From Heptranchias perlo (lineage: Eukaryota): DNA of 64,000 nt. Below the pieces are notes generated by a model. It saw nothing but the letters and a program-made list of their open reading frames with translations. It ran no database searches and was not told the origin of the DNA. The DNA lies in NCBI RefSeq assembly GCF_035084215.1, contig NC_090352.1, forward strand, positions 1,612,001 to 1,676,000. The letters run 5' to 3'. Position 1 is the first letter of the stretch; every line of letters begins with the position of its first letter. Made by a program: the position numbers and the translations under genes. Of this stretch, positions 1-64,000 are shown in pieces.

Positions 1-1
1 G

Positions 2-1626: not shown

Positions 1627-1663
1627 TCACCTGACGAAGGAGGAAAGCTCCGAAAGCTTGTGA
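1627..1663 (+). ncRNA. Minimal type-I hammerhead ribozyme motif in PLE pLTR
   Basis: TCAC-CTGACGA-A-GGAG(gaaag)CTCC-GAA-AGCT-T-GTGA: stem I TCAC/GTGA, CUGANGA and GAAA cores, stem II, palindromic AGCT in place of stem III; AATAAA follows. Confidence 0.85.
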
Positions 1664-2449
1664 TTCCAAATAAAGCTGTTGGACTATAACCTGGTGTTGT
1701 AAGACTCCTTACATCTTTTCACTACCACAGAGAAGATTAACAAGAGACTTCCACCCATTGGTCATCTTCTGGATTCTGTTGACTGGATACTCTCTGGACT
1801 TTAATCCATCTGTACATCTCCCACAGTACTCCACATCTTCTGACTTCCTGGCAATGTTTTTCTCCCCTCCTCTGGACTAATAAGTCCCTATGAACACCTT
1901 GTATGTAGGTTCCTTCATTTTAATATTGTTACATACTGATTTTGCTTTTCCATATTTCTACTGTGTTCTAACTCCTGTACCACCTGCTTGTGCAGAGTAG
2001 TTGCCACTATGGACCTCGCTCACCCATCCTCTTTGTTTTCCTCTTACCTGTCTAGTTCTGGTTTTTCTGCTCCACTTTGCAATAAATAATAGGTCAGGCC
2101 ATATGTCCCACCTTTGTGGGGTGGTGAGTTTGATCCACTGACACTGCAGTGAACCACCATTAATGTATTCATTCTCTTTTCAACCATTTTCATAAATGCC
2201 AGTTTTAAAGGTGGGCAGGTGACCTGGGATGGGTTGACATCTTGAGCAGTGCTGCACTCTGGCTTTTTGGTAGGAAGCTGAAGTGTGACCTGAGGTGGAG
2301 TCCCTTCTGATTTTTCAGCCAATTCCATTGCTGCTATTAGTATATTCGGTATTTAAACACAAGCACATATTTTAAACAAGCTGCCAAATATGGTGTGCTA
2401 AGGCTAGTCTTTTTATTTTATGTTGATTTTTAAAATGTTTATTGAAGAT

Positions 2450-32889: not shown

Positions 32890-32995
32890 TTGTAAACAAT
32901 TTTACAACACCAAGTTATAGTCCAGCAATTTTATTTTAAATTCACAAGCTTTCGGAGGCTACCTCCTTCCTCAGGTGAACGATGTGGAAAATCAT
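32890..32995 (-). mobile_element. 106-bp PLE pLTR 3'-end insertion
   Basis: Homologous to 1625-1714; flanked by direct repeat TGTCACTGATTT at 32878-32889 and 32996-33007. Confidence 0.88.
32941..32979 (-). ncRNA. Minimal type-I hammerhead ribozyme motif
   Basis: TTCAC-CTGAGGA-A-GGAG(gtagc)CTCC-GAA-AGCT-T-GTGAA on the minus strand. Confidence 0.83.
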
Positions 32996-43859: not shown

Positions 43860-44000
43860 CTCATGGCAGAGCATGGGGCCTAGGCAGCTGAAGGCACAGC
43901 CGCCTATGCTGGGTCGAATGGAGGGTGGTGCACAAGAGGCCAGAGCCAGACAAAAGGGGTGGGGTGGGGTTGTAGGCCTGGAGGAGGTTACAGAGACAGG
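43860..44000 (-). mobile_element. L2 3' fragment
   Basis: Reverse complement is highly similar to 44440-44570. Confidence 0.75.
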
Positions 44001-44139
44001 GTGTTTGGCCCTAAATGAGGATGAAGAATAAAGTTTACTGCTCCATCTCAATCCCAAGTAGAATGCACTACGGCATTGAAAGAGTGTTGAGGTTAAAAAA
44101 AATCTTTACAAAAAATTGGTACTTTAACAAACATGTTGG

Positions 44140-44915
44140 GGGTTCCCTCGATGTTCAATGAGTTTATCCAGTGAGTAGCTCAGCCAGCCAGTTGAGATCC
44201 TTGACCTGTGAAGTTAGCTGATCTGAGCTAGAATATTGGTGGGGGTACTATTATTGGAATGTAATCAGTACACTAGGCTAGGAAGAGGCAAATTGAAAAG
44301 GTTCCTGCTCCTGATTGATGTCCATTGACCTCTGCTGGAAGTACACTTGGTTGGACATAGGTGAGGATAGGATTGGTCTTGGCTGCAAAGTCTCCTGCTA
44401 TTGTGTTAAAATGCTTTTGCGGCCTTGCCTCACCATGTCTGTGTAACCTCCTCCAGGCCTAAACCCCTCCCCCTGCGCTCTCCTTTTGTCTGGCTCTGGC
44501 CTCTTGTGCACCACCCTCCATTCGCCCCATCACAGGCATTTGTGCCTTTAGCTGCCTCGGCCCCATGCTTTGGAATTCCCTCCCTAAACCTCTCTGCCTC
44601 GCTACCTCCCTCTCCTCCTTTAAAAACCTACTTAAAACCTACCTCTTTGACCAAGCTTTTGCTCTCCTGCCCTAATATCTCCTTCATTGGGTTGGCGTCC
44701 ATTGTTTTGATTACGCCTCTGTGAAGCACCTTGGAATGTTTTTCTATGTTAAAGGTGCTATATAAATGCAAGTTGTTGTTGTTGAATAGCTTGCCAGCAC
44801 TGTCATAACCCACATTTGAATAATGGCCACTTGGGTGAGGTACTGGAGGGGCTACCTATACCTGTTGAACAGTGCCCAGCACAGTCAAGGCCTTAAGGGG
44901 AGGTATTGAGAAAAT
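44140..44915 (+). mobile_element. SINE family A copy interrupted by an L2 3' end (44425-44785)
   Basis: SINE blocks agttagctgatctgagc and gaataatggccacttgggtgaggtactggaggg flank an L2 tail ending gctatataaatgcaag(ttg)n. Confidence 0.7.
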
Positions 44916-45486
44916 CGCAAACATTAGCAAATGAAGCACATTGCAAAACGTTAAGGCATATTGGTTTAACTACGAATTTATGTAGAAAATGCTAAATAAC
45001 ACTTGTGACAATTGACAAGCACACTTGTCCGTTGTGTGTCAATGTAAAGTGACAGTGTAATCAATGAAGTTTTGTGGACTGACCAAGGTTACTAATTTAC
45101 TGCCAACTGGCATAAAATGGTCAGTTTGTGCAGAGGATATGCATTTACTAGGAACTGGATGGGACTTCTGCAAACTCACTGGAGCTGGCAGAGAGGAGAA
45201 GCTTTCATATTGTCAGTCTGGGTTGCATTGAAACCCATGTTCCACAGGTGATAGGATGTACGGATATACAAAAAAGGAGTTCAGGTGAATACTAGTTGGT
45301 CTATTGAGTCTGTCGTGACCTGGCTTGGTGTAACTTGTACACGATTACCCCCAGGAGAAAAACCTGAATTTTCTCTCTGGTCCCTGAAAGCGGTAAAGCA
45401 AGCTCCATGAAATCAGGGTGACCGGTGACACTATTCCCCCAATGGCCCACCAACTTCTGTATGTCGAGAAGTATCTCCTGACATCT

Positions 45487-46086
45487 TAGAATCATAGAAT
45501 TATACAACTCGGAAGGAGGCCATTTGGCCCGTCGTGTCTGTGCCGGCTCTTTGATAGAGCTATCCAATTAGTCTTATTTCCTTGCTTTTTCCCCATAGCC
45601 CTGCAAATGTTTCCCCTTCAAGTATTTATCCAATTCCTTGTTAAAAGTTATTTATTGAATCTGCTTCCACCACCCTTTTAGGCAGTGCATTCCAGATCAT
45701 AACAGCTCTTGCGTAAAACATTTTTTTCCTCATGTCGCCTCTGATCCCTTTGCCAATTACCGTATATCTATGTCTTCTGGTTACCGACCCACTGGAAACC
45801 GTTTCTCCTTATCTACTCTATCAAAACCCTTCATGATTTTGAACACCTCTATCAAATCTCCCTGTAACCTTCTCTACGCTAAGGAGAACAGCCCCAGTTT
45901 CTCTAGTCTCTCCATGTAACTGAAGTCTTTCATCCTTGGTACCATTCTAGTAAATCTCCTCTGCAGCCTCTCTAAGGCCTTGACATCCTTCCTAAAGTGC
46001 GGTTCCCAGAATTGGCTACGATACACCAGCTGGGGCATAACTAGTGTTTTATAAAGGTTTAGCATCACTTCCTTGCTTTTGTACAT
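45487..46086 (-). mobile_element. 5'-truncated CR1 LINE
   Basis: YKSKEVMLNLYKTLV..RKDVKALERLQRRFTRMVP; tagaatcatagaat tail. Confidence 0.9.
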
Positions 46087-47307
46087 ATAGTCTAGTTCTA
46101 TGCTTTCATAACATATGTCTCCTGGTCCTCTGTAACCTATCTAGCTCAAATAGCCTATTTACATGGATATAATCTAACCCTTTCATTATTTTAAAGATTT
46201 CAATCAAATCTCCTCCAGGCCTATGGTTTTCCAAAGTAAAAAGACCTAATTCTCATAATCTGTCCTGATAACAAAGAGCCTTAAACTTAAACTATTAATT
46301 GAGTAGCCCTCTTCTGAACCTTTCCAGGCCTCTATATCTCACACCCATGTGAGGAGACCAAAACTGGACAGGTGAACAAATTGTGCCACGCATCCCTAGA
46401 AAATATATACATCTTTTAGTAGCAAAGAGGAATATGAACGAGAAGGAAGGAGTTTGCAATCTCATTAACATTACTGATCAGTTCTGTTTAAATTAATTGG
46501 AGCAGTTAGTTAGAAGTATTGCTTTAAGGAGAGAAATGAAGCATTACAAACTTATTTGAACAATCTCTGCTGGAAAGTGCTTCACCCTTTGAGAACCAGA
46601 TGATTCCAGTTTGTGAGAAATGTTTCTCATCTCCTCATATTTTACTAAACTTAATGCTTCGATGCGCAAAAAGTTAGAATTAAAATAATTAAAGCTTCAT
46701 TTATTTGATATCAAGATTCTGTCTGAACAAAGTTGTGCCAAAACAGGGTTTGTTCTACTTCCAGTAGTTTTTCGTTTAAAGTATTACATTGATTTACTTT
46801 TCTCTAGCATTGCCATTGTACATTTAATGGAACATCTAAGTAATCTATATATTATTTAAAGAAATGGGGTCCCTGCTGTTGTAACATGCTTGTGGTACGA
46901 TTCCAGCAATACCTTTAGATTAAAAGGCTTTAGTCCAACTTTAAAGCAAATGTCTGTTGTTAACAATTATGAATCACAGTGAGAATAGTAGTTGGAAACA
47001 GGTCTTTGTTTTTGCAATGCTCTAATTAGAGTTTTTTTTTACAGGAGTATATTAATGCACTCTTAAACTCACACTAGATCTCTTTCTGTAGTTGGTTAGT
47101 CGTATTTTCTGCAGTACTCAGATGATTAATATTTTAGTCAGAATGCAAGGATTCTTATTCAATCAGAGGGTGTAATGGCACCAGGGATGGGCTGTCATTT
47201 ATTTTACATTCATTTCTGAGAAACTATTTTGTGCAAATTCATGTCCCAGTAGCGTGCCATTTTCAGAGCTCTGCTCCAGGCCGAAACTGCTTTTGTGCTC
47301 TAAATAA

Positions 47308-47410
47308 GAAAAACACTTGCATTTATAAAGCACCTTATCAGGTCTCAGAAACATCCCATAATGTTTCAAATACAATGAATTATGTTTTGCAGTAGCTGTT
47401 ATGTTGGTGA
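47308..47410 (-). mobile_element. SINE/L2-type 3' tail fragment
   Basis: Minus strand gggatgtttctgagacctgataaggtgctttataaatgcaagt, similar to 26960-27060. Confidence 0.55.
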
Positions 47411-47529
47411 ATAAGGCTCTAAAGAAAGTTTGGATGATGTAGGTGTTAAAGGAAAACTTAGAAATCAGGGACCAGGCTCTGGCCATGTTGTGTGTTGATT
47501 GAAGAGATTAGTCCCTGTCATTGGGCTCT

Positions 47530-47900
47530 CAATACGCACCCCCTCCACCACTGGCGTACTGTGGCTGCCAAATATATTATCTACAGGATGAACTGCAGCA
47601 ATTCACCAAGCTTACTTCAGCATCTCCCAACCCCAACCTCCACTATCATGAAGGATAAGAGCAGCAACATCATGATAACCAAGTTCCCCTCCAAGTTGCA
47701 CATCATCCTGACTTCGACGTATTCTGACGTCCCTTCATCGTCGCTGTGTCAATATCCTGGAAATCCCTCCCTAACACCATTGTGGGAGCACCTTCACCTC
47801 AAGGACTACAGCGGGTTGAGGCCACCACCGCCTTCTCAGGTGGGCAATAATTGCGGCTTTGCCAGCGTCAGCCCACATCTCAAGAACAAATAAAAAAAGA
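47530..47900 (+). mobile_element. Old 3' fragment of the same APE-RT family as 36416-41356
   Basis: HPLHHWRTVAAKYIIYRMNCSNSPSLL; 3' UTR gggcaataa..gccagcgtcagcccacatc..aataaaaaaa. Confidence 0.85.
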
Positions 47901-48097
47901 TGAACACCTCCTTTTCAGACCTAATGATGAACTCTGACGAACCTTGGAACACTGAAATGTTGAAGGCCTAATTTAGCAAGTGCTTCCCATTTTTCTAAGT
48001 TATCTTTCTCCCTCATTTATCAGTTAGCCAAATAAACATTTAGGAAAACATTTTGCAAATGATTAATTTGAGAACAAGCTTCGATTAATAGTACATT

Positions 48098-48355
48098 GTT
48101 TATTTTGCTTTATTCATCTCTGTCGATTTTTAATTTAGAAAAAAACAGGGACTGCTGATGACATCATTGGGGTACAAGCCTGAAGGAGTTATTGTGCCTG
48201 ACAGTGCAGTGGAATTGAATCTACGTGCTGAATCATCCCTGTGAAAATTCAGCTCGCTTGCACTGTCACACACACTGACTAATTCAGGCCTGTACCCTGA
48301 TTATGTCATCAGCAGTCACTGTTTAAACAACTGACAGAAATGAATGCAACAAACG
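48098..48355. repeat. ~260-bp imperfect palindrome (old hairpin-type element)
   Basis: aacagggactgctgatgacatcattggggtacaagcctgaa pairs with ttcaggcctgtaccctgattatgtcatcagcagtcactgtt; inner tgacagtgca/tgcactgtca; outer attcatctctgtc/gacagaaatgaat. Confidence 0.8.
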
Positions 48356-48898
48356 AATGATAATCATAATTCCTTGTAATCATTGGATTTTCAACATTCT
48401 GATACTGTGGCTCCTCCTTTAAAGCTGCTTTGCACCATTTAGTATTGTTCACCCGAGAGGTCGGCAGTAAATGACCTCTCTCCCATACCGTTCTTAGTTG
48501 GCTGCTACTAGATGTGTGACAGTGGTCTGGCCAATCTATCCTCCATTTCCCCCTTTTCTTTCAGATGTTCTATCAATTTACTTTAATATGTATTTATATT
48601 GGGGGTAAATTTAATAGCACCTGTCTAGCTGTATTTAATCTTTTAGTTTTATTTGTCTAATTCTCAGTCACTAGTTGTAATGAGCGTAACAAAATACAGT
48701 TTGAAGCATTTTGATAATTCTAAATTCATTACTCTTTATCAATTGTAAAAAGGAGGGAATTGTCTCCACAGCTAGCATATTCCACTGGAGCTTGCTTCCC
48801 TTACTCTGCAACACTGACTTTCATTCAGAACAACATTTAAACAGGGGTTCATTTGACTGTGTAAATTTAAGCACAATGTGAAGTCAACCAACTTAAAA

Positions 48899-50310
48899 AG
48901 AATCATGGAGAGGTTACAGCACGGAAGGAGGCCATTTGGCCCATCGAGTCCGTGCTGGCTCTATGCAAGAGCAATCCAGCTAGTCGCACTCCCCTGCCCT
49001 ATCCCCGTGGCCCTGCAAATTTTTTACTTTTGAGTACTTATCCAGTTCCCTTTTGAAGGCCATGATTGAATCTGCCTCCACCACCCCCTCAGGCAGTGCA
49101 TTCCAGATCCTAACCACTCGCTGCGTAAAAAAGTTTTTCCTCATGTCACCTTTGGTTCTTTTACCAATCACCTTAAATCTCTGCCCTCTAGTTCTTGACC
49201 CTTCTGCCAATGGGTACAGTTTCTCTCTATCTATCTCTGTCAAGACCCTTCATGATTTTGAACACCTCTATCAAATCTCCTCTCAACCTTCTCTGTTTCA
49301 AAGAGAACAACCCCAGCTTCTCCAGTCTATCCATGTAACTAAAGTCCCTCATCCCTGGAATCATTCTAGCAAATCTCTTCTGCACCTCTCTAAGGCCATC
49401 ACATCTTTCCTAAAGAGCGGTGCCCAGAACTGGACACACTACTCCAGTTGTGGCTGAACCAGTGTTTTATAAAAGTTCATCATGACTTCCTTACTTTTGT
49501 ATTCTATGCCTCCATTTATAAAGCCCAGGATCCCGTATGCTTTTCTAACTGCTTTCTCAACCTGTCCTGTCACCTTCAACAATTTGTGCACTTATACCCC
49601 CAGATCTCTCTGTTCCTGTACCCCTTTTAGAATTGTGCCCTCTAGTTTATATTGCCTCTCCCTGTTCTTCCTACTGAAATGTATCACTTCACATTTTTCT
49701 GTGTTAAATTTCATCTGCCACATGTCCACCCATGCCACCAATCTGTCTCTATTCTCTTGAAGTCTATCACTGTCCTCCTCACTGTTCACTACCCTTCCAA
49801 GTTTAGTGTCATCTGCAAAGTTTGAAACTGTGCCCTGTACACCCAAGCCCAAGTCATTAATTTATATCAAGAAAAGCTGTGGTCCTAGTACCGACCCCTG
49901 AGGAACACCACTGTACACCTCCCTCCAGTCTGAAAAACAACCGTGCACCACTACTCTCTGCTTCCTGTCACTTAACCCTGTATCCATGTTGCTTCTGCCC
50001 CCTTTAGTCCATGGGCTGCAATCTTGATGACAAGCCTACCATGCGGTACTTTATTAAACGCCTTTTGAAAGTCCATATACACCACATCAACTGCATTGCC
50101 CTCATCTACCTTCTCTGTTACCTCATCAAAAAACTCTATCAAGTTAGTTAAACACTTAGGGAAGTTAGGGAAAGCCAGTAACTGTTAATTCTGTCCCAGA
50201 TTATCGTTTCTAAAAGTTCCCACCACCGGGGTTTAGCTGACTGGCCTGTAGGTGCTGGGTTTATCCGTACACCCTTTTTTGAACAAGGGTGTAACATCTG
50301 CAATTCTCTA
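48899..50310 (-). mobile_element. CR1 LINE with an internal deletion near 50155-50200
   Basis: FADDTKLGRVVNSEEDSDRLQ, KFNTEKCEVIHF, SRTRGQRFKVIGKR, RKNFFTQRVVRIWNALP. Confidence 0.92.
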
Positions 50311-50659
50311 TTTCTGTTGTATTGACCACAGAATTTTTGGTCTAATTTTGAGGGTAAATTGAATATTTCATCAAAGAACATGGGCAGTTGCTGATTCAGT
50401 TGAAGTGCCTCATGGCATCACCTGAACGTGGTACAACGTGTACAGTGCCTTCACTGTCTAGATAAAACACTTCTGTAAATTGAAAGGCCAGTTCAATTTT
50501 GCACAAGGCAATAGTTGGACAGAACAAAGACAGATGATTTAAGTAATGATGGGAAATCCTTCCATTTTTGGAAGTCATAAGCATTACTGGCAGATCCCCA
50601 TTATGTTCATAGTGGATACATCACAGGAGGAGGCCATTCAGCCCACCGTGCCTGTGCTG

Positions 50660-50865
50660 ACTCACCTGCTGGCATCTGTTCCCTGGGTGCTCCCCTGTCC
50701 GACTGACAGCCAGCCTGTCAACCTGGCTGGCTGTTGGGTGGGAAACCCAAAGGAAAAAATTGAAAGATGTCCTTACGTCAAAATAGTAAGGACATCCAGG
50801 AAACCCGTACTTCTGGGTTTCCTGTCACGAATCCCCCCCTTCCCGGCTTCCCATTAAAATTTACC
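50660..50865. mobile_element. Possible terminal fragment of a Harbinger-type MITE with three short palindromes
   Basis: Three 10-11 bp inverted repeats; ACTTCTGGGTT is shared with the Harbinger subterminus at ~6367. Confidence 0.4.
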
Positions 50866-51289
50866 TTTTTATACCTGATATGTTCCTCCGGGATGTGCTA
50901 AGGAGTGCATTGTTTAGCTTGTTTGGATGAATACCTTTCTGGGCAGGTTGATGTTCAGATAAATTTTGCTTGTGTAGGCTGTTATATAATGCAGGTCACC
51001 CAGGATTCTCTTGCTTATTGCCTGTTAATTCTGACATGAAACTGAATCACATCACTCTGCTTCTAGCATCAGCAGTTCTATTATGGTTCATGATTGGATC
51101 TTTTCTGTTTTGAGGTTCCTTACATTCAGAGAAAATGAGCAAAAATATAAAAACATAAAAAAGCTTTGTGAAATGATGTAGATCCAGTTTTAAGCTGCTG
51201 AACAGAAAAGTTATTTAACATGCAACCTGAACTTCATATTGATAGAAAGTTAGGAGATAAAGAGGTTATGGCTAATGGGTGTTGCTCAG

Positions 51290-52242
51290 ATTGAAGAGTA
51301 CCCCATGGCTCGTCAATCCCCATGGGTCAGTGCCAGATTCACTTTTTGTTCTCAATATACAGTGTATAGATGATTTAGACTTGGGTATAGTGAGCACGAT
51401 ATCAGCAAAAAGTGGGGGATTTGGCAAACATGAGGATGATTGTACAAGACTTCAGGAGGACATAGGTTAGTCGAATGGGAATACAGGTGGCAGATGGAAT
51501 GTAATGTGGAGAAGTGTGAGGTAACACATTTTATGAGGAAAACAAGTAATGGGAGTATACAATTAATGAAAATCTGCTGAAGGATGTGGATGCTCAGTGA
51601 GACCCAGGGCTTCAAATACATAATTCCTTGAAAGTGCAAGTGCAGGTAGATAAAGCCAATAACGTTTTGGGTTTCATGAAGAGCAAAGAGATAATACATT
51701 TGTATAAGGTTAGGCCTGAGTTTGAGTACCATGTCCAGTTTTGAGAGCCCCATTATCAAAAGGACATTAAAGCCATAGAGAACGTACAGTGTAGATTCAC
51801 CAGGATGATGCCAGCGATGGAAACTATAGCTATGAGGAGAGACTTGTGATACTGGGATGACTTCCACTGGAGCAATGGCTAAGAGCAAATTTAATAGATT
51901 TTTTTTTAGTTATGAAGGGTTTTGAAAGGATGAATAGGAACAGGCTATTTCCTCTGGTGGGTGAGTCAGTGATGAGGGATCATCAACTTATAAAAGTCAC
52001 AGAGCAAGGAGAGAGATTAGGAGAAATTTCTTAATGTAATGTTATTGCAGCATGGAATGCTTTGATACAGGGAGTATTGAAGTGGAGATCTTTGCATATT
52101 TTAAAGGAAAAGTAGATAAATATTTGAAGCAGAAGACGACACAGGGCAGTGTGATGAGTTTTGGATTGGTCTTGCAAAGAGCCGGCACAGACACGATGCA
52201 TTGAATGACCTCCTTCTGCGCTGTAAACCTCAATCATTCTTA
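51290..52242 (+). mobile_element. Decayed CR1 LINE
   Basis: PHGSVPDSL..IDDLDLG..DCTRLQEDI; WQMECNVEKCEVTHF; CR1 3' UTR. Confidence 0.85.
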
Positions 52243-54140
52243 AAAATTCCATTTAAAATTTTGTTTCTGGTTTGTGGTTTATGGCTGGATTTCTTCTACT
52301 GCATAACACATGGTGCATTTTAATTCCCGTGAAATTGTGGGATTTATATGCTGGTCACTGAATTGTTACTGTACCTTCTACATGTAAAACTGAAGACAAA
52401 ATATATTTTGAGGATGGTGAAGTTCAAGTATCCATGTTTCCCCCTTCCACCGCTCCCCCTGCCCACAAAAGTAACCAGACGATTTAGTAGTTCTAACAAT
52501 GGAAGAGGATTTGTTACAAATAATTCATTGTAGTGTGTCAGGTCCTCTGGCGCCTTCCAGAAGGACCTCACCATAGTTAGTCATTAAAGCTGTTATGCTC
52601 TCCTGATCCTGCAATGTCTTATAAATCAGAAACCTTTTGTACTGGATTTTAAGAGTTTTCCTGCTGTAGAAATCCTGGTTACGATTATAGGTGTGCCCAA
52701 TTATATAAGCCCAAATGGCTGCCTAGTTAATTTTATTTGAACAAATAAAAATAGAATTTCTAAAGGAACTTAAATTTATGGAGCTACAGGATTTTGTTTT
52801 TACTGTAAATTGGATACATTATTCATTGACCTTTTCATACAGTGAGTGATTATACTTCAACAGCTAGTTTTGGATTAACTTTTATATAGTGAAGGAAACA
52901 AATATTTTTGACACACTTTTAAGCCAGTCTAATGAAGAAAAACCACAAGATGATTCAGTGAATCTGTAATCGAGTCAGTCAAGCAAAGCTCCTTGTGCTG
53001 TCACTGCAGAATATTCATGGTTCTCCCACATTTAGAATGTTTCTATATGGATTGTTTTTTGTGAGCTTTGATTGTCATTGCCCAGGACCAACTAAACACG
53101 TGGTTGTCTGGCAGCCATTTTAACTACAGAATTTGGCTTATTGTAGTTGGAGCGTAGCAAATTTAAGTCCAAGTTTAAGTGTCCTGTGCTTCTGTAGCTG
53201 TTGTGGGCTTTTGGGCAGTTGGATTTTTTTCTCAGCTGGGCCAATTATTTTCCTGATTTTGAATTTCGACTGACTACCTTGTTGCTTTTGTGCAGAATTT
53301 AAATATCTGGGCAAAGATTGGTTTGCCAAACAAACATTTTGGTAATGGAACTGACACAGACACGATGGGCCAATGGCCACCTACTGTGTTGCAAAGTTCT
53401 ACAGTTAACAAGAGCAGTGAATTATTCTTAATTGAGTTTACGATCTTTCTTTTTCCTGGTGGTGATGATGGGGAGGGTGGGGGAGTAGGGATAATTGCAA
53501 GGTTGCTTAAGGGCAGAGGGAATAACAGAACACCTGTTCTAAAATTAAAGACAGTTGGAGATAGGGAAGCAGCTTCTTGAAGGACCTTGACCCTTGTCGG
53601 CCTGCACCTAAATTCTCTGGGCTTGGGTAATTTGGAAGTGCACTCCATATGAGGCAAACAGAAAGTGAGTACGAAAATGAGTACTTCAGTGAATTTTTCA
53701 GTAGTTTGGTTTGAAATCTCTTAAGCATGGTGATGAGTTTCTACATGTGTCAGACTGAATAATAGAAAAAATAATTTGATTGGAGCCATTGGACTGGGAT
53801 GAACATCTGAGAATTTGGATAAAGGATGAATGGTGCAGCTAGACAGCCTGCAGTATGCCTGTTTAAATAATTTATTACTGGACAGCAATGAAAACTTTTA
53901 CATGCACTGAGGTGATGCCATCACTTCAGATAAGGCCTCGTGACCCTCAGCCTAACTATATTCAAAATATTTTTATACTCTTAAAAGAAAGACCCCAAAC
54001 GCCTCATTGCTTAAAAAGATCTTTCTTCCATTGTGTTCATTTGAATCATGCTTGCGATATGACTTGGCTAAACTGTTGATCTTGAGGAGTGGAAGTCCTT
54101 TTGAGATTTAGTGCACAGGGTGTACCCCATGACAGATTAG

Positions 54141-54398
54141 TGTAAGGAATCTTACAACACCAGGTTATAGTCCAACAGTTTTATTTGAAAATCACAAGCT
54201 TTCGGAGGCTTTCTCCTTCGTCAGGTGAGTGTGGGATTCCATGAATGGTACCGCATATATAGTCAGAGAACAATGCCTGGTAATTACAGATAATCTTTCC
54301 AACTGCCCGTTATCAAGGCAATCAAAGGAGTTGAATAGTGTTCAGACAGAGAGGCATTACATACAGGACTACTGAATATACAAACGGTCAGAACCCAA

Positions 54399-54433
<35 letters not shown>

Positions 54434-54480
54434 TCCGAAAGGAAGAGAAAGAGAGAGAATGACCAGCTGTATTAAAAACA
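54141..54480 (-). mobile_element. Solo PLE pseudo-LTR
   Basis: Colinear with 1370-1714 including the (CT)n tract and terminal ggactataacctggtgttgtaagattccttaca. Confidence 0.92.
54192..54228 (-). ncRNA. Minimal type-I hammerhead ribozyme motif
   Basis: TCAC-CTGACGA-A-GGAG(aaagc)CTCC-GAA-AGCT-T-GTGA on the minus strand. Confidence 0.85.
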
Positions 54481-55160
54481 GGAAGTTAAGATAATGGACC
54501 AACCATATTGTACCCTTATGCAGTGATGTGGAAGAGCAGAGGGGTTCGGGAATTAAAAGCAGCAACTTGCGGATAAGGCCATAAAAAAAGCAAATGGAAG
54601 AATACTGGGTTTTCTAGAAAGAGGTATGGAACATAAAAGTCAAGATGTAATGGTGAATCTGCACAAAACCTTAGTAAGACCACAGTTGGAGGACTGTATG
54701 CAATTTTAGGCTCGACACTATAGGAAGGATGAGGAGGCAATAGAGAGGGTACAGTGCAGATTTACACTGGATGCTGCCTGGTATGAGGAAGTACAAAAAT
54801 GGAAAATTGGGGCTGTTTTTGTTAGAACAGAGGAGACCACAGGGTGATCTGACAGAGGTATTTAAAATTATGATGGGATGTGACAGGGTAGATAGAAACA
54901 GACTGTTTCCAGTGGCTAAGGACAAGGGGACAGAGACATAAGATTAAATGTAAGAGATTTAGGACAGAGAACTGGAGAAATCCTTTTACGCAGAGGGCTG
55001 TGAGGCTGTGGAATGCACGACTGGAGTTAGTGATTGAAGCAGAGACCAGGTCAACATTTAAGAGTAGGTTAGATAGGTGGTTGAAGGAAAGGGTGATAAA
55101 AGGAGATGGGAACACGGGGTTAGTGTACTGCTCATGTGGAGGATAAACACCAATATGTAA
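54481..55160 (+). mobile_element. Decayed CR1 3' portion
   Basis: Remnants of LVRPQLEDCMQF and RRNPFTQRAVRLWNA; same subfamily as 36000-36415. Confidence 0.85.
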
Positions 55161-55339
55161 TATGTAGTTGCACGTGTTGGATCCCTCATACAATGGAATT
55201 GGGGCTGGTATTTAATATACTCTGGGGTCATCCTGAGTTGGTTGAATCCTTTCGTATTCTCACATCATCAGTGAGAATGGTGATTAAAAACCTCTACCTA
55301 TAGTGCAAATTAAAAAGTGCATTGAACATCTTAAAACTA

Positions 55340-55828
55340 TCATCCATGCAGGTCTTGTCTAGCCAGAAGACTCCATATAGGGTGATCTCCGCGAGTACTT
55401 TTCTTAAGTAGCAAATAAGAGAACCTCTCCTAAATAGGGAGACATGCTTCTGTATTTAACTGTTAGAAAAAGGTAAACCAGATTCTAATAGCTGATCTCA
55501 TACAGATTCTCCTTACGCTCTCACTGGAGCTCTGTTTGCAGCAATGATCAATTGAAGAGGTTTCTGATAGTTGTTGCTAACACTGCATCCTCTTGAACTG
55601 GGCACCAGCTGAACCTGCAGGATGACAAATACATTCAAGTGCTTTTTAACATCTAGCATCCTGGTAAAAGGTGAGGCTTGATGGTGGGTGGAGGGGGTGA
55701 TAAATACTTTAAATACAGGAGCATGTCTCCCTATTTAGGAGAGGTTCTCTTTTTTGCCACTTAAGAAAAATACTCATGGAGATCACCCTATATGGAGTTT
55801 TCTGGCTAGACAAGACCTGCGTGGATGA
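55340..55828. repeat. Long inverted repeat: 120-bp arms (55340-55459, 55709-55828), 249-bp spacer
   Basis: Ungapped alignment by eye gives 8 mismatches in 120 bp. Confidence 0.92.
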
Positions 55829-58174
55829 CAGATTCATTGGGTTCATCTCTGGCTGCCATTAGTTGAGGAGGAACCGGCATCTCTCCTGGTGATGGATGCC
55901 AGTCCCGGTGTTCAAATGTAGCTGAAAAGTTCAGTACCGACTCATAGAAATTACATGCTCAGCTGTGTCCTATGCCCCTAGTAGTTTGTATTCGAAGACT
56001 TCTAATTCTGAAAAATATGAAGTAATTTTTGAAGTGAGTATGTCTACATGAGTTGTAGCTGGTTGTCAGGGTAAAGTTGCTGTGTATGACCGGATTTTAG
56101 GCAAATGAATAAATATAATTGTAGAGGAAAAACATTTTCTCTTACTCCACATTTACACAGTGTACTTGTTGCAGTATGAGGTTGAAATATGAATTGTCAG
56201 TTTAAATTGATAGCCAACATATTGAAAGTTGACTATAATTTGCCCTTTGAGAATAGTAATACAGAGAGGCAGATGGGTTTTCAGAGTAACAAATTACAGT
56301 GTATATATAGTTGTGGCTTTTGAACACCTTCACCTTCATTGTAGAACAGCCACCGATATCTGTTATCCAGATTGGAACACCAACACACATAACCATGGTA
56401 AAGAACATCCTCACAAAGATTGGTGACAGGCAGGGGAGGAAATACCAGACATGTACGGATGCAGGATAGCGGTGAACAGAATTGTTTGCAGTTGGTCACA
56501 TTGCAGTTTAAACGTGGCATGTGAGAAATTTGTTGGCCATTTGTGGCCATTCTTTTATGGCGGATCCAGTTTTTGTAAACTTTTTTAAGAGGTAACGAAA
56601 ATGCAATTTGTGTATTAAATTTATATCAAAATTGAGAAGACAATTGTCTTACCCCTGCTTTTTTTATTCTAAACCTATACATCCTATTACAGTTTAAAAG
56701 TAGGACACCATAATTGGCAGTTGTAGGATGTAACTTAGAAGTCTTAACCTATTATAAAAGCAAACGTTTATATTGTGACAACAGCATCAGAAAAAGTGCA
56801 TCTTCTAGGAGTAGTGCAGCAACAAGACTGTATGTCTTGTTTCTTGATTTTTTGGCATGAGTGGGATTGGAGGTAAAGGTTCACTGGGAATCCAGAGATA
56901 TAATCTCTACATTTTCTCATGTAGATTGTTTACATCTTGGCTATCTACCTGTCACGTATTGCATCTTAATTCTGAGAGTAGCAGATCAGCGCACCCACAG
57001 TAAGGTTAACAGGCTTTTGTTAATGGGGATTGAATGATTTACATTTTGATATTGTACTACTTTATCATAAGCAACAACACGTGCTAGACCATGTTCCTCC
57101 TATTTTGTATCCTCATAGATGATGTGCTGCCAGCTCAAGACATTCAGTTTTATAAAGGGAAAGCAGATATACAGTAAACAAAGAGCCGAGACAGCTTGTT
57201 GTTATCAGAAACTGGGAGATTACTTGTTACTGCCCACAGCCAAACTGATGGGTGCAATGTTTTCAGTCAATTTGTTTCTCATTTTCACATTAGGGCTGGA
57301 ATTGTTTGCAAAATGTTGCAACATCAGCAGTTATTCTGATTTTAATTGATTTTATTCTTACAGAAATCATAGCCAACTTCTCAGTCAGTTAGCACACAGT
57401 TGAACCTCACAGCAATTTGGTTTTTGCTTTGTGTAAAATGCATCATATCAACATAGTTTTACATTCTCTAACACCCTTTCTAATCATGTTAAAACCGTGC
57501 ACTTGAAATAAAAGATCCATCTATTTAAAAAAGCAGCTGATTTGTCAGGTTTTTTTGTCCATTAAAGGTGTAAATTAATGAAACTTATCCCAATAATTAA
57601 TGAGATTAATTATTACAGCAGTGGTTCAGATGCACCTTTACAATCATTTGTGTCTGTCAGATAGACCTCTAACATTAGTACGTGGGTTTTAAATTTAAGA
57701 CGCAAGTTTACTGCTTTGGTTTGAGCCATGTTCCTGACAATTGAATGAGACTTGCCAATATTTAAGGGTTTGTATTAAAGGAAGTATGGTATTTCCTTGA
57801 CAGAAACCCTTTATTTGAAACATTGAGCAGCTGTCCTTTATTAAGTGCCTAATCACTTCCTTCTAACAATGTGCTTTAGCCTTCTGCAGGTTGTGATTTT
57901 AACTGTTTCAGAACCAACTGCTTATATATCATTCTTAATTTCATTTAAAGCAAAGAATAATTTGTACAATTAACTAACATTTTGGTTACATCAACAATAA
58001 AAGCTAATAAGTATCTTAAAAAAACACAAAATTCAAATCCTGTGAAATTGAAGAATTTTTTAATTTTTCTGCATTCTACAGTATGATAAAAAGATCAATC
58101 TGTGAATGTTTATTGACAGCGTTATAAAGAATTGGAAGAAATTGTGGATCCACAACAATTCTTCAGTTGCAGTA

Positions 58175-59362
58175 CATAAGAACATATGAGTTAGGAGCAG
58201 GATTAGGCCATTTGGCCCTTCAAGCCTGCTCCGCCATTCAACGAGATCATGGCTGATCTGATTCTGGCCTCAACTCCACTTTCCCGCATGTTCCCCATAT
58301 CCTTTGACTCCCTTGCTGATCAAAAATTTGTCTAACTCAACCTTGAATATATTCAATGACTCAGCCTCCATCGCTCTTCGGGTAGGCAACACAGTCTTCG
58401 GGACTAACCGTCTTGGCTGCAGAGAACAGTATCTATCCCCCTAACTATACTGTCGCTACTACTACCACCTTCCTTTTTATTCCCTCCCACTTGAATAGCC
58501 TCCTGTACCATGGTGCCGCGGTCAGTTTGCTCATCCTACCTGCAGTCCTTGCTCTCTTCCATATGGCCTGCAAGAACCTCGTAACTGTTAGACAAGTGCA
58601 GGGGCCGAGGCTCCTGCAATGCTACCTCCTGGATCCCCGTACCTGCCCCACTTGCAGTCACACTTTCCTGTTCCTGACCACGGGCCAAATCTAAAGTGTC
58701 CAGGTAACTTTCTCCCTCCCTAATATATCGCAAAGTCTGCAGACACTTACTGCAGATATGTCCAGTAGCTCCCACATGTTGCAGCTGCAAGACATCTCCT
58801 GCCCTGCCATATCTATAGTATTTATTTAATTAATTACATCACTGTCAATCAAATTATTTATAAATTTGATGTAACTAACCTTGTTTAATTTATTTAATTA
58901 AGTTTAGTTAATTATAAATTTAGTTTTATACTATACGGTTTAACTGTAACTTAGCCCACAGTCCTAAGAAAAAGAAATACTCACCACCAATCACCCACCT
59001 GCTTTACCTGTGACGTCACTCTTCTGCTTTTTATCAGAATGCGGTCGGTCCGCTCTCGCTCTGCGCTGTTTTTATCGCTGTTTCCCGCTGCTCTGGTGAA
59101 CTCTTGCTCTGCGCTGTTTTTATCCCCGCTCCACGCTGTTTTTATCCCCACTCCACGCTCGCTGTTTCCCGCCGCTCTGGTGAACTCTTGCTCTGCGCTG
59201 TTTTTATCCCCGCTCCACTCTCGCTGTTTCCCGCCGCTCTGGTGAACTCTTGCTCTGCGCTGTTTTTATCCCCGCTCCTCTCTCGCTGTTTCCCGCTGCT
59301 CTGGTGAACTCTCGCTCTGTGCTATTTTTAATCCCCGCTCCACTCTCACTGTTTCCCGCCAC
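58175..59362 (-). mobile_element. Bipartite CR1: 5' UTR and ORF1 start joined to 3' end
   Basis: 3' UTR 58175-58385; ORF1 remnant HICSKCLQ..EGESYLD..LHLSNSYEVL 58430-58810; 5' region with tandem repeats. Confidence 0.75.
59053..59362. repeat. 62-bp tandem repeat, about 4.5 copies
   Basis: gctgtttcccgccgctctggtgaactcttgctctgcgctgtttttatccccgctccactctc recurs at 59161, 59223 and 59285. Confidence 0.92.
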
Positions 59363-59802
59363 TCCTACCCCATAAAGAATTAATCATCAAGGAATATTTA
59401 TAATTTTTGCACCCTGTAATCATACCCTATTGCTAGTGGAAGTGCTCAATTTTCCACCTCGCTCCTATCAGTTCACCTCCCATTCACATTCCCACTACCC
59501 CAATCTCTTTGAATTACCTGCTCAACCCCTGTGTCTTCCTCTCCCCCTAGCTCTGCTGTCACTTATTTCACCCTTAAACCTTCTATCCATTCCGTCCCTC
59601 AATCCCACTCCCTCCATTAAGAGCAGATGATGATACTAGAGGCCCCTCTCACCCTAGGCCTTTTTCCATTCTCCCCTTCCCTCCCTTTCTCTCCCACCCT
59701 CCCTTTCTACCCTACCTGTTTCCCTCAGAGACTTTGTTGGCTTTAAAAATTCAAATTTTTTTTTAAACAGAAATCAAATTAGAATGAAGAAAGAAACTAT
59801 GA

Positions 59803-60016
59803 GTCTCTCTCTCTCTCTCCTCTTCCTCCCCCCTCTGTCTTATAGGTATTAGAGATTCTGTCTTATAGGTGTAAATGATTGGCTAACTGTCAATACAACA
59901 CAGGTGAGACGATTAGCTGGCTTCAAAATTCAACTGGTGTTTTGAAAATTGAATTAACATAATGTGAAAAAGTTTCTCTCTTCTTCCCCACCTCCCTCTC
60001 TCCTTTCACTGTGTGT

Positions 60017-60048
<32 letters not shown>
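59803..60048. repeat. (CT)n and (GT)n microsatellites
   Basis: (CT)n at ~59804-59820 and 60020-60047; (GT)n at 60010-60019. Confidence 0.85.
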
Positions 60049-60049
<1 letters not shown>

Positions 60050-60204
60050 CAATGTAACACACCGTTTTAAGTTTATAGAACATTAAACAATAGCTATAGT
60101 AAGTGTTAAATGTATTTTTTTGCACGTACACATTTAAAAAAAAATCCCTCAATATAAATTTTACTTCAGTAAAGGCTTGTTCTTCAAAATTATTATTGTA
60201 TGTT

Positions 60205-60305
60205 GATAGGGTACGATGAAGTAAGGAGGCTTGTGAGGAGCATAAACACCAGCATAGAGCTGTTTGGCCGAATGGCCTGCTTCTGTGCTGTAAATACTAT
60301 GTAAA
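60205..60305 (+). mobile_element. CR1 3' UTR fragment
   Basis: gaggagcataaacaccagcatagagctgtttggccgaatggcctg, as at 18885-18945. Confidence 0.7.
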
Positions 60306-60574
60306 AGCTACTGACCAGAAAGTGCTAGAAGCTGAAGAAAAATATTCCAACGGCACTAATACTTCCTGGGAAAGTAGGTACGCTGCACATGCTCAGAGTA
60401 CACATTCTGCACATACTGAATTTGTAATCTTAGCCACGCCGTTGTTACAAGGCACGAAGGAGATGTGTACCTCTATACGGGGGCAACTTGTCTAGCCTGC
60501 TCCTGGGTACCTTACGGTATTAGTAGAGGCTAGGGAGTAGGTTTCCTAGCTGTTCTTTTACAGGGATGGTGCAA

Positions 60575-61515
60575 CACCTACATGCTTCCCCTGAGCGACA
60601 TCATCCGAAAACACGTCAAGTTCCACATGTACACTGAAAACACCCAGCTCTATCTCACCACCAACTCCTTCAACCCCTTCACTGTCTCTCATTTGTCACA
60701 CTGCTTATCCAAACAAAAATTTCCTCCAACTGAATTGGGAAGACCGAAGCCATTGTCTTCATTCCCTAGCCACTGACTCCATCCCTCTCTCTGGCCACTG
60801 TCTGAGGCTGAACCAGACCGTTCACAACCTTGGCGTCCTATTTGACCCTGAGATGAGCTTCTGACCACACATCCGCTCCATCACCAAGACCGCCTACTTT
60901 CACTACCGCAGTATCACCCGTCTCCGCCCTGCCTCAGTTCGTCTGCTGCTGAAATCCTCATCCATGCCTTTGTTACCTTTAGACTTGACTATTCCAATGC
61001 TCTCATGGCTGGTCTCCCATCTTCCACCCTCCATAAACTTTTGACCTCATCCAAAATTCTGGTGCCCGTATCCTAACTCGCACCAAGTCCCATTCACCCA
61101 TCGCCCCTGTGCTCGCTGACCTACATTGGCTCCTGACCCGGGAATGTCTCGATTTTAAAATTCTCATCCTTGTTTTCAAATCTCTCCATAGCCTCACCCC
61201 TCCCGATCTCTGTAACCTCCTCCAGCCCTACAACCCTCCGAGATCTCTGCGCTCCTCCAATTCTGGCCTCTTGCACATCCCCAATTTTAATCGCTTCATT
61301 GTTGGCGGCCGTGCTGCCTAGGCCCTAAACTCTGGAATTCTCTCCCGAAACCTCTCCGCCTCTCTACCTCTCGCTCCTCCTTTAAGAGGCTCCTTAAAAT
61401 CTACCTCTTGTCACCTGTCCTAATGTCTCCTAATGTGGCTTGATGAAAATCGCTCCTGTGAAGCGCCTGGGGACATTTTACTATGTTAAAGATGCTATAT
61501 AAATTGTTGTTGTTG
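60575..61515 (+). mobile_element. 5'-truncated L2 LINE with 18-bp TSD
   Basis: MLPLSDIIRKHVKFHMYTENTQLY, LADLHWL, FKILILVFKSLH; (TTG)n tail; TTTACAGGGATGGTGCAA at 60557-60574 and 61516-61533. Confidence 0.93.
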
Positions 61516-61720
61516 TTTACAGGGATGGTGCAAGATGTAGGAAGACTAAATGGTGGAAAAATAACAACGTTAGCCTCAGGTTAGGGGTCTGCAAAGGTGC
61601 TATCTTAGTTTTAAAGGACATGTAAATTAACACTATGTCCAAAGTGGTAAGTTGCGTGCCACTTTTCAACAGTAAGGAGTTGCACAACACCAGGTTATAG
61701 TCCAACAGCTTTATTTGAAA

Positions 61721-61757
61721 TCACAAGCTTTCAGAGCTTTGCTCCTTCGTCAGGTGA
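61721..61757 (-). ncRNA. Minimal type-I hammerhead ribozyme motif (left arm)
   Basis: TCAC-CTGACGA-A-GGAGC(aaa)GCTCT-GAA-AGCT-T-GTGA on the minus strand. Confidence 0.83.
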
Positions 61758-62332
61758 AGTGAAGAGATGCATAAAGGCACAGCATATATAGTCAGAGAAC
61801 AATGTCTGGTGATTACAGATAATCTTTCTAACTGCCCTTTAATCACACCTCGGCAGAGAGATAATCACAGCAATCAAAGGAGTGAATGGTGTTCAAACAG
61901 GTTAGTCAGGGAAACATTACATCCAAGAATACTGAGGTGGGGTCATAAGGGGTCAAATGTAGCAGATGCTGGGGTTTGTACTGAAAACAGATAACATTTT
62001 TTTGCTGGAAATCGCAGCAGGTCCGGCCGCATCTGTGTATGGAGACTCCATACACAGATGCGGCCGGACCTGCTGCGATTTCCAGCAAAAAAATGTTATC
62101 TGTTTTCAGTACAAACCCCAGCATCTGCTACATTTGACCCCTTATGACCCCACCTCAGTATTCTTGGATATAATGTTTCCCTGACTAACCTGTTTGAACA
62201 CCATTCACTCCTTTGATTGCTGTGATTATCTCTCTGCCGAGGTGTGATTAAAGGGCAGTTAGAAAGATTATCTGTAATCACCAGACATTGTTCTCTGACT
62301 ATATATGCTGTGCCTTTATGCATCTCTTCACT

Positions 62333-62369
62333 TCACCTGACGAAGGAGCAAAGCTCTGAAAGCTTGTGA
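62333..62369 (+). ncRNA. Minimal type-I hammerhead ribozyme motif (right arm)
   Basis: Same motif on the plus strand, followed by AATAAA at 62375-62380. Confidence 0.83.
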
Positions 62370-64000
62370 TTTCAAATAAACCTGGTGTTGTGCGACTCCT
62401 TACATTTGTCCACCCCAGTCCATCACCGGCATCTCCACATCATGACTTTTCAACAGGACTGCAAACTGCCTGTGCTGAGGTATTTCCTGCATTTGGTAAC
62501 TGACAATACATGGGTCTGTTTTGAAAAATAGTATGCAGCTGAAGAATACAAGAAGGAAAAATGATGAGCTGTCTAATTTGGATGAGGTCCAAATCTAATG
62601 GGACCCTTTTTGATTGTATGGTCTGCATGGTGGTTAATCTGGCCCTGATAGAAACATTGTTTCATGAAATCTATCTTTAAGAAAGAATTCCTGTGTATCT
62701 TAGAAGCCATGGCAAGCAGTATAACATTATCTGGTAGCAATAGATTCAATCACTGAATGCGTCATAAGTGGAAATCTTTCACTTTGATATGGTTTTCTCT
62801 GCGTAAATGGAATGTTAAGAATGGGATTGGAGGAGAGAGGTGTTGGCTGGTATTGAGGCAGAGGGAGGGGATACACTTTGTGTTACGAGTCTATTGCTGG
62901 TTTATAATGGCAATTGTCTAAATTCTCCTTGGCATGAGACCTAAACTGAGGTGCTTCTGGTTGTGCTCGTGCTTGATTTGAAGCTTGCGAGTTTGTAATG
63001 GTAAACAGAGATCGAATTTAAAGATTAATTCACCTTTGTGGCTACGTGTGAGATATTAATGAACAATACATTCCCTTTTATAAGCACTCTTTCCACCAGT
63101 CTTACAACACAGTAAGAAGATTTACTGGAAAACTAATTGCACAGTGTTGACTGCATGAAAGCATGTTTATGGTTGAGATGAGCAAGAAAGGTTTGGATAG
63201 TCCCTTTTGATGTTTGCCTGTTTTCACTCATGACAGGTCTTGAAATAAGTGGTGTAACAGCCAAGCTGTACACAGTCAGCAACGCCTGCTCACCACTCTA
63301 CAAGTTTCAGTTTTCATTGTGATTGAAAACTGTGCCACAGTTTTGAAATGAAACTCACTGGTACATACATGTTCCAAAACCTGGTACAAGATTGTACTAC
63401 AAAGCAGTTTCACAATTTGTTGTCGTTTCTGCCTTGCATATTGGGAAATTAGCAAAAGATTCAGATTTGATGTGTCACTTTTTGGGGTATTTTTGCGGTT
63501 TAAATAATTTTTAAAAATGCTTTGCTGTCTGTCTTGATTTTTCCATATCCACAAATGTAAAAAAAATTATAGATTGCTTTAAAACGTATTGCAACTCACA
63601 ATTTTGTAGTGCACGATTGACTCTGTAGTGAGCACAATGCTATCAGTAGATCATTTTGAACTTTACATGGCTGAGGTGTAGTCTTTCCAATCCCGTGGAG
63701 CTTGGGGAGTGAAATTATAAACAACAATTTGTACTGTACAACAGTATGGGCTGAAAGCTGTTCTGCTTCTTTTGCATTTGTTGTTCAGTTTGAGGCTAGC
63801 TGAATGAATCCAGAGTGGCACCAGGTGTTGGTCTCTCATTATTCTGTTCAGAATAACAAGGAATGTGGGAATGTAAAAGGGTGAGATGGCAGCAGAGGCC
63901 TGTCATTGTGTGTGTGACAGACCACTTCATAAATAGAAAGTGACAGCTGGGCTAATGATGTCACCAAAGAAGGAACAACTGCACTGCATCTCATTATCTC

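What the first reader, a model, noticed from the sequence alone, without database searches (positions are those of the whole stretch)
61661..62456. Near-perfect 0.77-kb fold-back element with a hammerhead and polyA signal on each strand, inserted as one event
Seen: 335-bp arms, one mismatch, 1-nt spacer (GGAG-A-CTCC); outer arms continue after a 15-nt deletion in the right arm; a ~41-nt tail (62404-62444) on the right only; 12-bp TSD; no coding sequence. Known: PLEs form inverted pLTR structures with a short one-sided tail and carry HHRs. Inference: snap-back priming of cDNA made a hairpin intermediate. Transcription either way gives a 335-bp dsRNA in which the HHR is sequestered by its own antisense, a potential siRNA/ADAR substrate against the family. 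Such spacerless palindromes are normally unstable, so it is young or maintained by conversion.
Basis: partly seen in the sequence, partly recalled or inferred. Interest (0 to 1): 0.8.

Follow-up and report, generated by a model that had tools for sequence, protein, structure and literature searches.

The report
Mirror-image Penelope retrotransposon stump
This fold-back DNA is an ordinary, truncated insertion of a very common Penelope-type jumping gene that usually lands as two back-to-back copies; its many sister insertions hint that each half is copied separately from either end of the cut site.

Summary
The palindrome, one-sided 41-nt tail and 12-bp target duplication are in the assembly as described. 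It is a 5'-truncated, head-to-head insertion of a Neptune-type Penelope-like element (PLE), and this is the family's normal product: 6616 motif hits; 25 divergent pairs and no other close pairs among the first 100; 73 of 78 complete inverted loci have one tail, none two; duplications mostly 12-13 bp. The junction is unique, so the unit does not propagate. Snap-back is the published guess but fits the family poorly: the tail sits on the arm without the spacer in 45 of 71 loci, and arms disagree at subfamily-diagnostic sites 31 of 432 times (3.5 expected from one template). Best reading: both target ends prime separate cDNAs at the two known start sites, then the cDNAs are joined. The near-identical arms mean youth or conversion (unresolved). 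The 1-nt spacer is doubtful: contigs from two runs of one sample show an asymmetric centre (7-nt spacer) at single-locus depth. The hammerhead has lost G10.1-C11.1. No RNA evidence. The scan noted mini versions before in another genome.

The parts
61661..61672 (+). Left target-site duplication (12 bp)
   Evidence: 12-13 bp in 49 of 73 one-tailed inverted loci
61673..62044 (-). Left arm: 3' end (pLTR region) of a Neptune-type PLE, starting about 47 nt behind the ORF stop and ending at the inner (tail-less) end of the family
61710..61715 (-). AATAAA in left pLTR (function untested)
61721..61757 (-). Minimal type-I hammerhead motif, left copy; C11.1>U at 61733
62045..62045 (.). Centre of symmetry in the assembly (1-nt spacer); read contigs of one sample show a 7-nt asymmetric centre instead
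62046..62403 (+). Right arm: same pLTR region; carries a 15-nt deletion after 62380 and the mismatch at 62170
62333..62369 (+). Minimal type-I hammerhead motif: stem I UCAC/GUGA, CUGACGA, extra A, stem II GGAGC/GCUCU, GAAA, palindromic AGCU helix III; C11.1>U at 62357 (CpG decay)
   Evidence: features listed in PMC4209133
62375..62380 (+). AATAAA in right pLTR (function untested)
62404..62444 (+). 41-nt tail: the sequence that follows the pLTR in tandem copies and ends with the ORF's start ATG (62442-62444)
   Evidence: (L090)
62445..62456 (+). Right target-site duplication (12 bp)

Best explanation
A routine, single-event, 5'-truncated insertion of a high-copy Neptune-type Penelope-like retroelement (identity about 0.95). 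Mechanism (inferred, about 0.6): the element's GIY-YIG nuclease makes staggered nicks 12 bp apart; both freed 3' ends prime reverse transcription, one at the outer start site (giving the tail, which ends at the ORF's ATG), the other at the inner site 41 nt away; the two cDNAs, made on two RNA copies that mostly come from the same source lineage, stop early and are joined at their 3' ends by short microhomology, bluntly, or with a few added bases; repair fills in. Here the two cDNAs stopped within 1-5 nt of each other, so the spacer is tiny. Shown: anatomy, family, ORF, tail and duplication statistics. Inferred: two priming events, two RNAs, joining. The near-identical arms most simply reflect a young insertion from a somewhat diverged source (about 0.55), with arm-to-arm conversion (0.35) or consensus smoothing in assembly (0.1) not excluded.
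For: Family ORF with RT and C-terminal GIY-YIG-type end, DKG and CX4CxxC motifs. 6616 exact hits of a pLTR 24-mer; among the first 100, 25 neighbour pairs within 2 kb, all divergent; 8 of 12 apparently solo hits also had an inverted partner. Of 78 complete inverted loci: 73 one tail, 0 two, 5 none; tail on the arm that lacks the spacer in 45, on the arm that has it in 26, 2 equal; 35 of 53 for spacers over 10 nt, 19 of 32 over 100 nt. Arms disagree at 31 of 432 non-CpG diagnostic site comparisons; 3.5 expected from one template plus mutation, 169.5 from random pairs; whole-haplotype switches in L116 and L021. Two clustered outer ends match the two adjacent RT start sites, both strands cleaved and extended, and the predicted dimer of the anole PLE (PMC11167929). 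Junctions away from the hammerhead hotspot: 26 of 67 with 2 or more nt microhomology, 4 with 1, 7 blunt, 30 with inserted bases.
Against: Most discordant loci differ at one site only (23 of 27 listed), so site-specific hypermutation or later short conversion from other copies could explain part of the 31. No locus has two tails or a clean excess of no-tail insertions, which free choice of start site at each end would predict; an extra rule (one outer, one inner) is needed. For this locus alone nothing separates the models: both arms agree at 9 of 9 diagnostic sites and share six rare variants. Loci were chosen by similarity or by motif pairs, not at random. No paper found that shows two-ended priming for PLEs; it is not tested in vitro here.
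Confidence: 0.6

Rival explanations
1. Self-priming (snap-back): one cDNA, or an antisense RNA, folds back and is copied into a hairpin; the nuclease then trims the tail from one arm or the other.
For: Proposed for palindromic inverted junctions in PMC3846280; nuclease-made tail suggested in PMC8557442. Recurrent junction at the natural mini-hairpin TCA-CC-TGA at hammerhead stem I (9 loci with the same breakpoints). Arms mostly agree at diagnostic sites (401 of 432). This locus's arms share six rare variants.
Against: A fold-back copy cannot extend past the start of its template, so without later trimming the tail must lie on the spacer-bearing arm; it lies on the other arm in 45 of 71 loci. 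A self-copy cannot carry another subfamily's haplotype (L116, L021). The family sequence upstream of this junction offers no homology for a 1-nt loop; the stable fold needs a 3-nt loop.
Confidence: 0.25
2. The locus is of ordinary age and its arms were homogenised after insertion by arm-to-arm conversion through hairpin or cruciform formation; the asymmetric centre in the read contigs is a stabilising revision of the tip. (This concerns later history and is compatible with either insertion mechanism.)
For: Arms differ at 2 of 351 sites against a median of 2.65% in 54 other long-arm loci (Poisson P 0.005), yet each arm is about 2% from the family majority. Six rare variants are shared by both arms; two variant pairs occur nowhere else in the assembly (2 hits, both arms; 100% only in the two arms among 40 scored of 1157 candidates); best other copy 98%. 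Two of three unshared events lie in the outermost 37 bp. Cells revise palindrome tips by asymmetric deletion (PMC8701086 passages).
Against: Equally similar arms occur with long spacers (L068 220 nt, L119 185, L038 371, L013 577), other short-spacer loci are not homogenised (L102 6 nt 16/403; L115 7 nt 10/332; L029 13 nt 20/443), arm divergence does not follow spacer length (rho 0.14, P 0.32), and the share of shared orphan variants is not clearly higher for spacers up to 20 nt (P 0.07 with, 0.13 without this locus).
Confidence: 0.35
3. The perfect 1-nt centre is a consensus artefact: the true locus has the 7-nt asymmetric centre seen in the read contigs, and the assembly symmetrised the tip. 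(The whole element as a fold-back artefact is far less likely, about 0.02.)
For: In X1 and X2 the only contig laid over 62046 carries the asymmetric centre, at about the depth of the unique flanks; no other locus in the assembly folds back within this stretch or carries that junction among 14 other copies that depart from the family at the two positions before the arm start. The assembly centre equals the left half of that junction plus its own mirror image.
Against: Contigs drop alleles, the sample may not be the assembled individual, and a contig's orientation inside a palindrome is not fixed. Zero to 2-nt spacers exist at short sister loci (L031, L033, L053, L054). Target duplication, tail, deletion and both outer junctions are real.
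Confidence: 0.3
4. A self-propagating palindromic non-autonomous element (MITE- or retrozyme-like) copied as a unit.
For: A recurrent short junction class exists at hammerhead stem I.
Against: This junction occurs once in 3.25 Gb; long-arm junctions all differ; the recurrent short class spans several stem-II subfamilies and both tail orientations.
Confidence: 0.03

Closest known systems
EN+ Penelope-like element insertions with inverted pLTR and one-sided tail (PMC8557442 Fig. 2 text; PMC3846280, e.g. Pen2a_Av)
   Same: Head-to-head inverted 5'-truncated copy, 30-40 bp tail at one end, short target duplication, hammerhead in pLTR, tail running into the ORF start.
   Different: Here both copies are cut down to the pLTR region and end within 1-5 nt of each other, so no ORF lies between; duplication 12-13 bp rather than 8-10; thousands of copies allow statistics.
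Poseidon of Anolis carolinensis, in vitro TPRT (PMC11167929)
   Same: Two adjacent RT start sites bounding the tail; both target strands cleaved and extended; predicted dimer.
   Different: Here the linker carries the CX4CxxC motif of Neptune/Nematis, and the tail ends at the ATG rather than 111-118 nt into the ORF; that paper (parts read) does not explain inverted copies.
LINE-1 twin-priming inversions (recalled, no call)
   Same: Both target ends prime cDNA and the two cDNAs are joined by microhomology; target duplication kept.
   Different: In L1 one RNA gives two non-overlapping segments; here the same segment is present twice, which needs two RNA copies or a tandem RNA.
Minimal PLE hammerheads (PMC4209133)
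   Same: CUGANGA core, extra base between 9 and 10.1, palindromic helix III without stem.
   Different: G10.1-C11.1 is G-U in both arms of this copy; the two motifs are on opposite strands, so one transcript cannot form the active dimer from them.

Membership tests
EN+ Penelope-like elements | Single ORF with RT followed by C-terminal GIY-YIG nuclease (in longer family copies) | tested here: met
   RVT_1 above cut-off in L036 frames; GIY-YIG E 6.7e-4, 20.3 bits, just under the 22.6 cut-off, in L038; DKG and VYLIRC..C..WYIGET motifs read. The locus itself has no ORF.
EN+ Penelope-like elements | pLTRs in partial tandem or inverted arrangement | tested here: met
   Partial tandem in L090; inverted here and in 78 complete loci
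EN+ Penelope-like elements | 30-40 bp tail at one end | tested here: met
   41 nt here; one tail in 73 of 78, two tails in 0
EN+ Penelope-like elements | Short target-site duplication | tested here: met
   12 bp; 12-13 bp in 49 of 73. Empty site not seen.
Neptune clade | CX2-5CxxC motif in the RT-EN linker (shared with Nematis) | tested here: met
   CHGNLCKTC; definition from PMC8557442
Neptune clade | RT phylogeny groups with Neptune rather than Nematis | not tested
   No reference sequences were fetched; no tree built
Minimal type-I PLE hammerhead | CUGANGA...GAAA core, base between 9 and 10.1, palindromic helix III, stems I and II | tested here: met
   Sequence and fold with stems I and II (z about 0, not more stable than shuffles); Rfam 0 hits
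Minimal type-I PLE hammerhead | G10.1-C11.1 pair | tested here: not met
   C>T at 62357 and 61733; family C in 186 of 194 arms
Minimal type-I PLE hammerhead | Self-cleavage (as dimer or protein-assisted) | not testable with these tools
   Needs an in vitro assay
L1-type twin-priming inversion | Inverted segment does not overlap the 3' segment (one RNA) (recalled definition) | tested here: not met
   Both arms cover the same 372 nt; works like it, is not a member
MITE / fold-back DNA transposon | Symmetric terminal inverted repeats and many copies of one unit | tested here: not met
   Ends asymmetric (tail); junction unique
Non-LTR retrozyme | Hammerhead units in head-to-tail tandem | tested here: not met
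   Two units head-to-head; definition from the abstract listed

The most novel reading that the evidence does not exclude
Inverted PLE insertions are made by two-ended priming: a PLE dimer primes both target strands, one obligatorily at the outer and one at the inner start site, on two RNA molecules, and joins the cDNAs tip to tip. That would settle the stated open question of how PLE inverted repeats and one-sided tails form, against the published self-priming guess, and this genome holds thousands of natural products to test it. In addition this locus may have been caught with two centre alleles, a perfect one and a revised asymmetric one, i.e. palindrome tip repair and arm conversion in a vertebrate germ line.
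Probability: 0.5. Interest if true: 0.6.

Novelty: new member of a known kind. Interest (0 to 1): 0.3.

Why it matters
The locus itself is ordinary. The family-level counts matter because PMC8557442 names the formation of PLE tandem/inverted structures as unexplained and PMC3846280 offers self-priming as a guess; tail position and arm haplotypes give a direct, scalable test between one-template and two-template models. PLE proteins are being studied as gene-insertion enzymes, where paired priming at both ends would change what products to expect. The disagreement between assembly and read contigs at the tip is also a warning that 'perfect' palindromes in assemblies need read checks.

Tried and rejected
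Rfam scan: 0 hits. Host-gene context: Pfam on 104 of 110 stop-to-stop frames of 62 aa or more from window 44001-64000 and the next 10 kb found only RT fragments and one sub-threshold UL49 hit; short exons would be missed, so intronic or intergenic is open. Expression: no RNA holder listed; not evidence either way. Orthologous or empty site in two other organisms: flanks almost uncovered at 88%; no verdict. Truncation hotspot (shared RNA 5' end) at the arm start as the reason for equal arm lengths: 6 of 156 arm starts fell at backbone 1500-1503, but the genome-wide pattern found only 2 other true truncations among 14 other loci, the rest being point variants, duplicated loci or one unrelated junction; not supported. 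Family-wide homogenisation of short-spacer palindromes: not supported. A source or sibling copy with this locus's variants: none found (BLAST searches score only 40 candidates). ADAR or APOBEC signature among the shared variants: mixed changes (one A>G, one A>T, two G>A, one C>T, one insertion), too few to say. Direction of diagnostic differences relative to the tail: no consistent rule. Literature searches for two-ended priming in PLEs listed nothing that proposes it; subscription papers on Penelope structure were not seen.

Full report
OBSERVATION. The window is G000:C31:1612001-1676000 of a 3.25-Gb assembly. That the repeats look shark-like is my recall and comes from no call on this genome.

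WHAT IT IS. Each arm is the 3' end of a high-copy repeat (2430 candidates, best other copies 97-98%). [quoted passage not shown] By the definitions in PMC8557442 (passages) this is an EN+ Penelope-like element with the Neptune/Nematis linker; no tree was built. In the partial tandem L090 the pLTR is followed by the same 41 nt and then the ORF, whose ATG is the last three bases of the tail. The window element is therefore two pLTR regions back to back, starting about 47 nt behind the ORF stop, plus the tail. The hammerhead is the minimal PLE type of PMC4209133 (passages) but both copies have C11.1>U, against C in 186 of 194 family arms; Rfam does not detect it. The AATAAA lies 62-67 nt upstream of the ORF's ATG; its function is untested.

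HOW COMMON. A 24-mer of the pLTR has 6616 exact hits. Among the first 100 listed there are 25 neighbour pairs within 2 kb, all divergent like this one, none convergent or tandem; of 12 apparently solo hits fetched, 8 had an inverted partner. I analysed 119 distinct loci (126 fetched by then, 7 duplicates dropped; chosen by similarity or by motif pairs, not at random). Of 78 complete inverted loci, this one included, 73 have one tail, 0 two, 5 none; 21 have spacers of 10 nt or less. The target duplication is 12-13 bp in 49 of 73. The junction of this locus is unique in the assembly. So it is a by-product of integration, and a typical one. Inverted copies with a one-sided 30-40 bp tail are described in PMC8557442 and PMC3846280 (passages).

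MECHANISM. Self-priming is the published guess (PMC3846280, Discussion passage), and PMC8557442 calls the origin of these structures undefined. A fold-back copy cannot run past the start of its template, so the tail should lie on the arm that also holds the spacer. It lies on the other arm in 45 of 71 loci (35 of 53 with spacers over 10 nt; 19 of 32 over 100 nt). A self-copy should also match its template at subfamily-diagnostic sites; arms disagree in 31 of 432 comparisons at 12 non-CpG sites, where 3.5 are expected from the background (421 of 21867) and 169.5 from random pairing; L116 and L021 switch whole haplotypes. Against over-reading: 23 of the 27 discordant loci differ at one site only, so hypermutation or later conversion may contribute, and most arms clearly come from one source lineage. 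The outer ends fall in two clusters about 41 nt apart, as do the two RT start sites of the anole PLE, which cleaves and extends both target strands and is predicted to be a dimer (PMC11167929, parts 1-2 of 4 read; its supplements, not seen, may bear on this). I therefore favour two-ended priming: staggered nicks 12 bp apart, one cDNA from the outer and one from the inner site, joined at their 3' ends (microhomology of 2 or more nt in 26 of 67 junctions outside the hotspot, inserted bases in 30). It works like L1 twin priming (recalled) but duplicates one segment, so it needs two RNA copies. Confidence about 0.6; a hairpin intermediate trimmed on either arm remains the main rival (0.25). The absence of two-tailed loci needs an extra rule in my model. 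For this single locus the models cannot be separated. Searches listed no paper proposing two-ended priming for PLEs; older subscription papers were not seen.

WHY THE ARMS ARE SO ALIKE. They differ at 2 of 351 sites; the median of 54 other long-arm loci is 2.65%. Each arm is about 2% from the family majority, through six rare shared variants (62094, 62109, 62144, an extra T near 62248, 62285, 62357 and their mirror sites). Two pairs of these occur only in the two arms, and no sampled locus shares more than two. This fits conversion. But three loci with spacers of 185-371 nt are even more alike (L068, L119, L038), other short-spacer loci are not homogenised (L102, L115, L029), there is no trend with spacer length (rho 0.14, P 0.32), and shared orphan variants are found at similar density in long-spacer loci. 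Youth from a diverged source that is not in this assembly is enough. I put youth at 0.55, conversion 0.35, consensus smoothing 0.1.

READS. Contigs of runs X1 and X2 (one sample, possibly the assembly's source, so not independent) cover the right junction with 0-1 differences and, in X2, the left junction, though with under 31 letters inside the element. At 61981/62109 the non-family letter has depth 38.6 in X2, about twice the flank (18.7-20.6), in keeping with both arms carrying it; X1 is less clear (17 and 24 against 10.6). At the centre both runs show the same departure from the assembly: two bases missing and one C>A at 62046-62049, which replaces CTCC by TA and gives a 7-nt spacer, at depths 11.2 and 23, close to flank depth. 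No other assembled locus folds back there. Either the assembly symmetrised the tip (about 0.3), or two alleles exist and the tip has been revised, as cells do to palindromes (PMC8701086, passages), or the contig belongs to an unassembled locus. Contigs drop alleles, so absence of the perfect centre in them is not proof.

dsRNA. Any read-through transcript would fold (inference), but no RNA data bear on it, host-gene context is unknown, and the property is shared by a large share of the family's copies.

VERDICT. A real, ordinary member of a known insertion type; interest 0.3, owed to the family-level test of an open mechanism and the doubtful centre, not to the locus.

Noticed in passing
window 60557-61533: A decayed LINE-like insertion with a (TTG)n-type tail, flanked by a perfect 18-bp direct repeat (60557-60574 and 61516-61533), 128 bp left of the finding. 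The L2 label is recalled.
   Followed up: no
window 1-1722, 32891-32979, 54141-54315: Other copies of the same or sister PLE subfamilies; the one at 1-1722 holds an open 239-aa nuclease end (627-1346) and a tail-less pLTR end.
   Followed up: partly
L042, L046, L051, L052, L055, L056, L060, L062, L064: Recurrent about 210-bp mini-palindromes whose junction sits at the natural TCA-CC-TGA hairpin at hammerhead stem I, in several stem-II subfamilies and both tail orientations; 33 of 156 arm starts fall in backbone 1780-1799, suggesting a common RNA 5' end just upstream of the hammerhead.
   Followed up: partly
window 62396-62418 (tail start): The tail-less ends stop at CTCCTTAC, a branch-point-like motif, followed by a pyrimidine tract and CAG before the ATG: looks like a 3' splice site of a 5'-UTR intron (consensus recalled; no RNA test).
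   Followed up: no
L002 etc., about 60 nt upstream of the arm start: A second, degenerate hammerhead-like stem (CTGACGT..GAGTC/GACTC) right behind the ORF stop, followed by sequence resembling another PLE family's pLTR (resemblance recalled): possibly a nested or captured pLTR.
   Followed up: no
L053, L056, L058, L059, L031, L063: Several insertions land in the same few nucleotides of another repeat (target duplications TAGAAGGA.. or its complement), hinting at a target preference.
   Followed up: no
L133-L136, L145; L143-L144: One inverted PLE insertion is present five times (four on C23, one on C1594) and another twice on C1403, probably as parts of segmental duplications.
   Followed up: no
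L037 543-1550 (-): A C2H2 zinc-finger array ORF of 336 aa with PLE fragments close by.
   Followed up: no
L035: Divergent pLTR ends 5.5 kb apart with LINE RT frames between them: possibly an inverted PLE split by a later LINE insertion.
   Followed up: no
window 43867-44572 and 55334-55834: Two further inverted repeat pairs of 126-143 bp (85-92%) unrelated to this family by BLAST.
   Followed up: no
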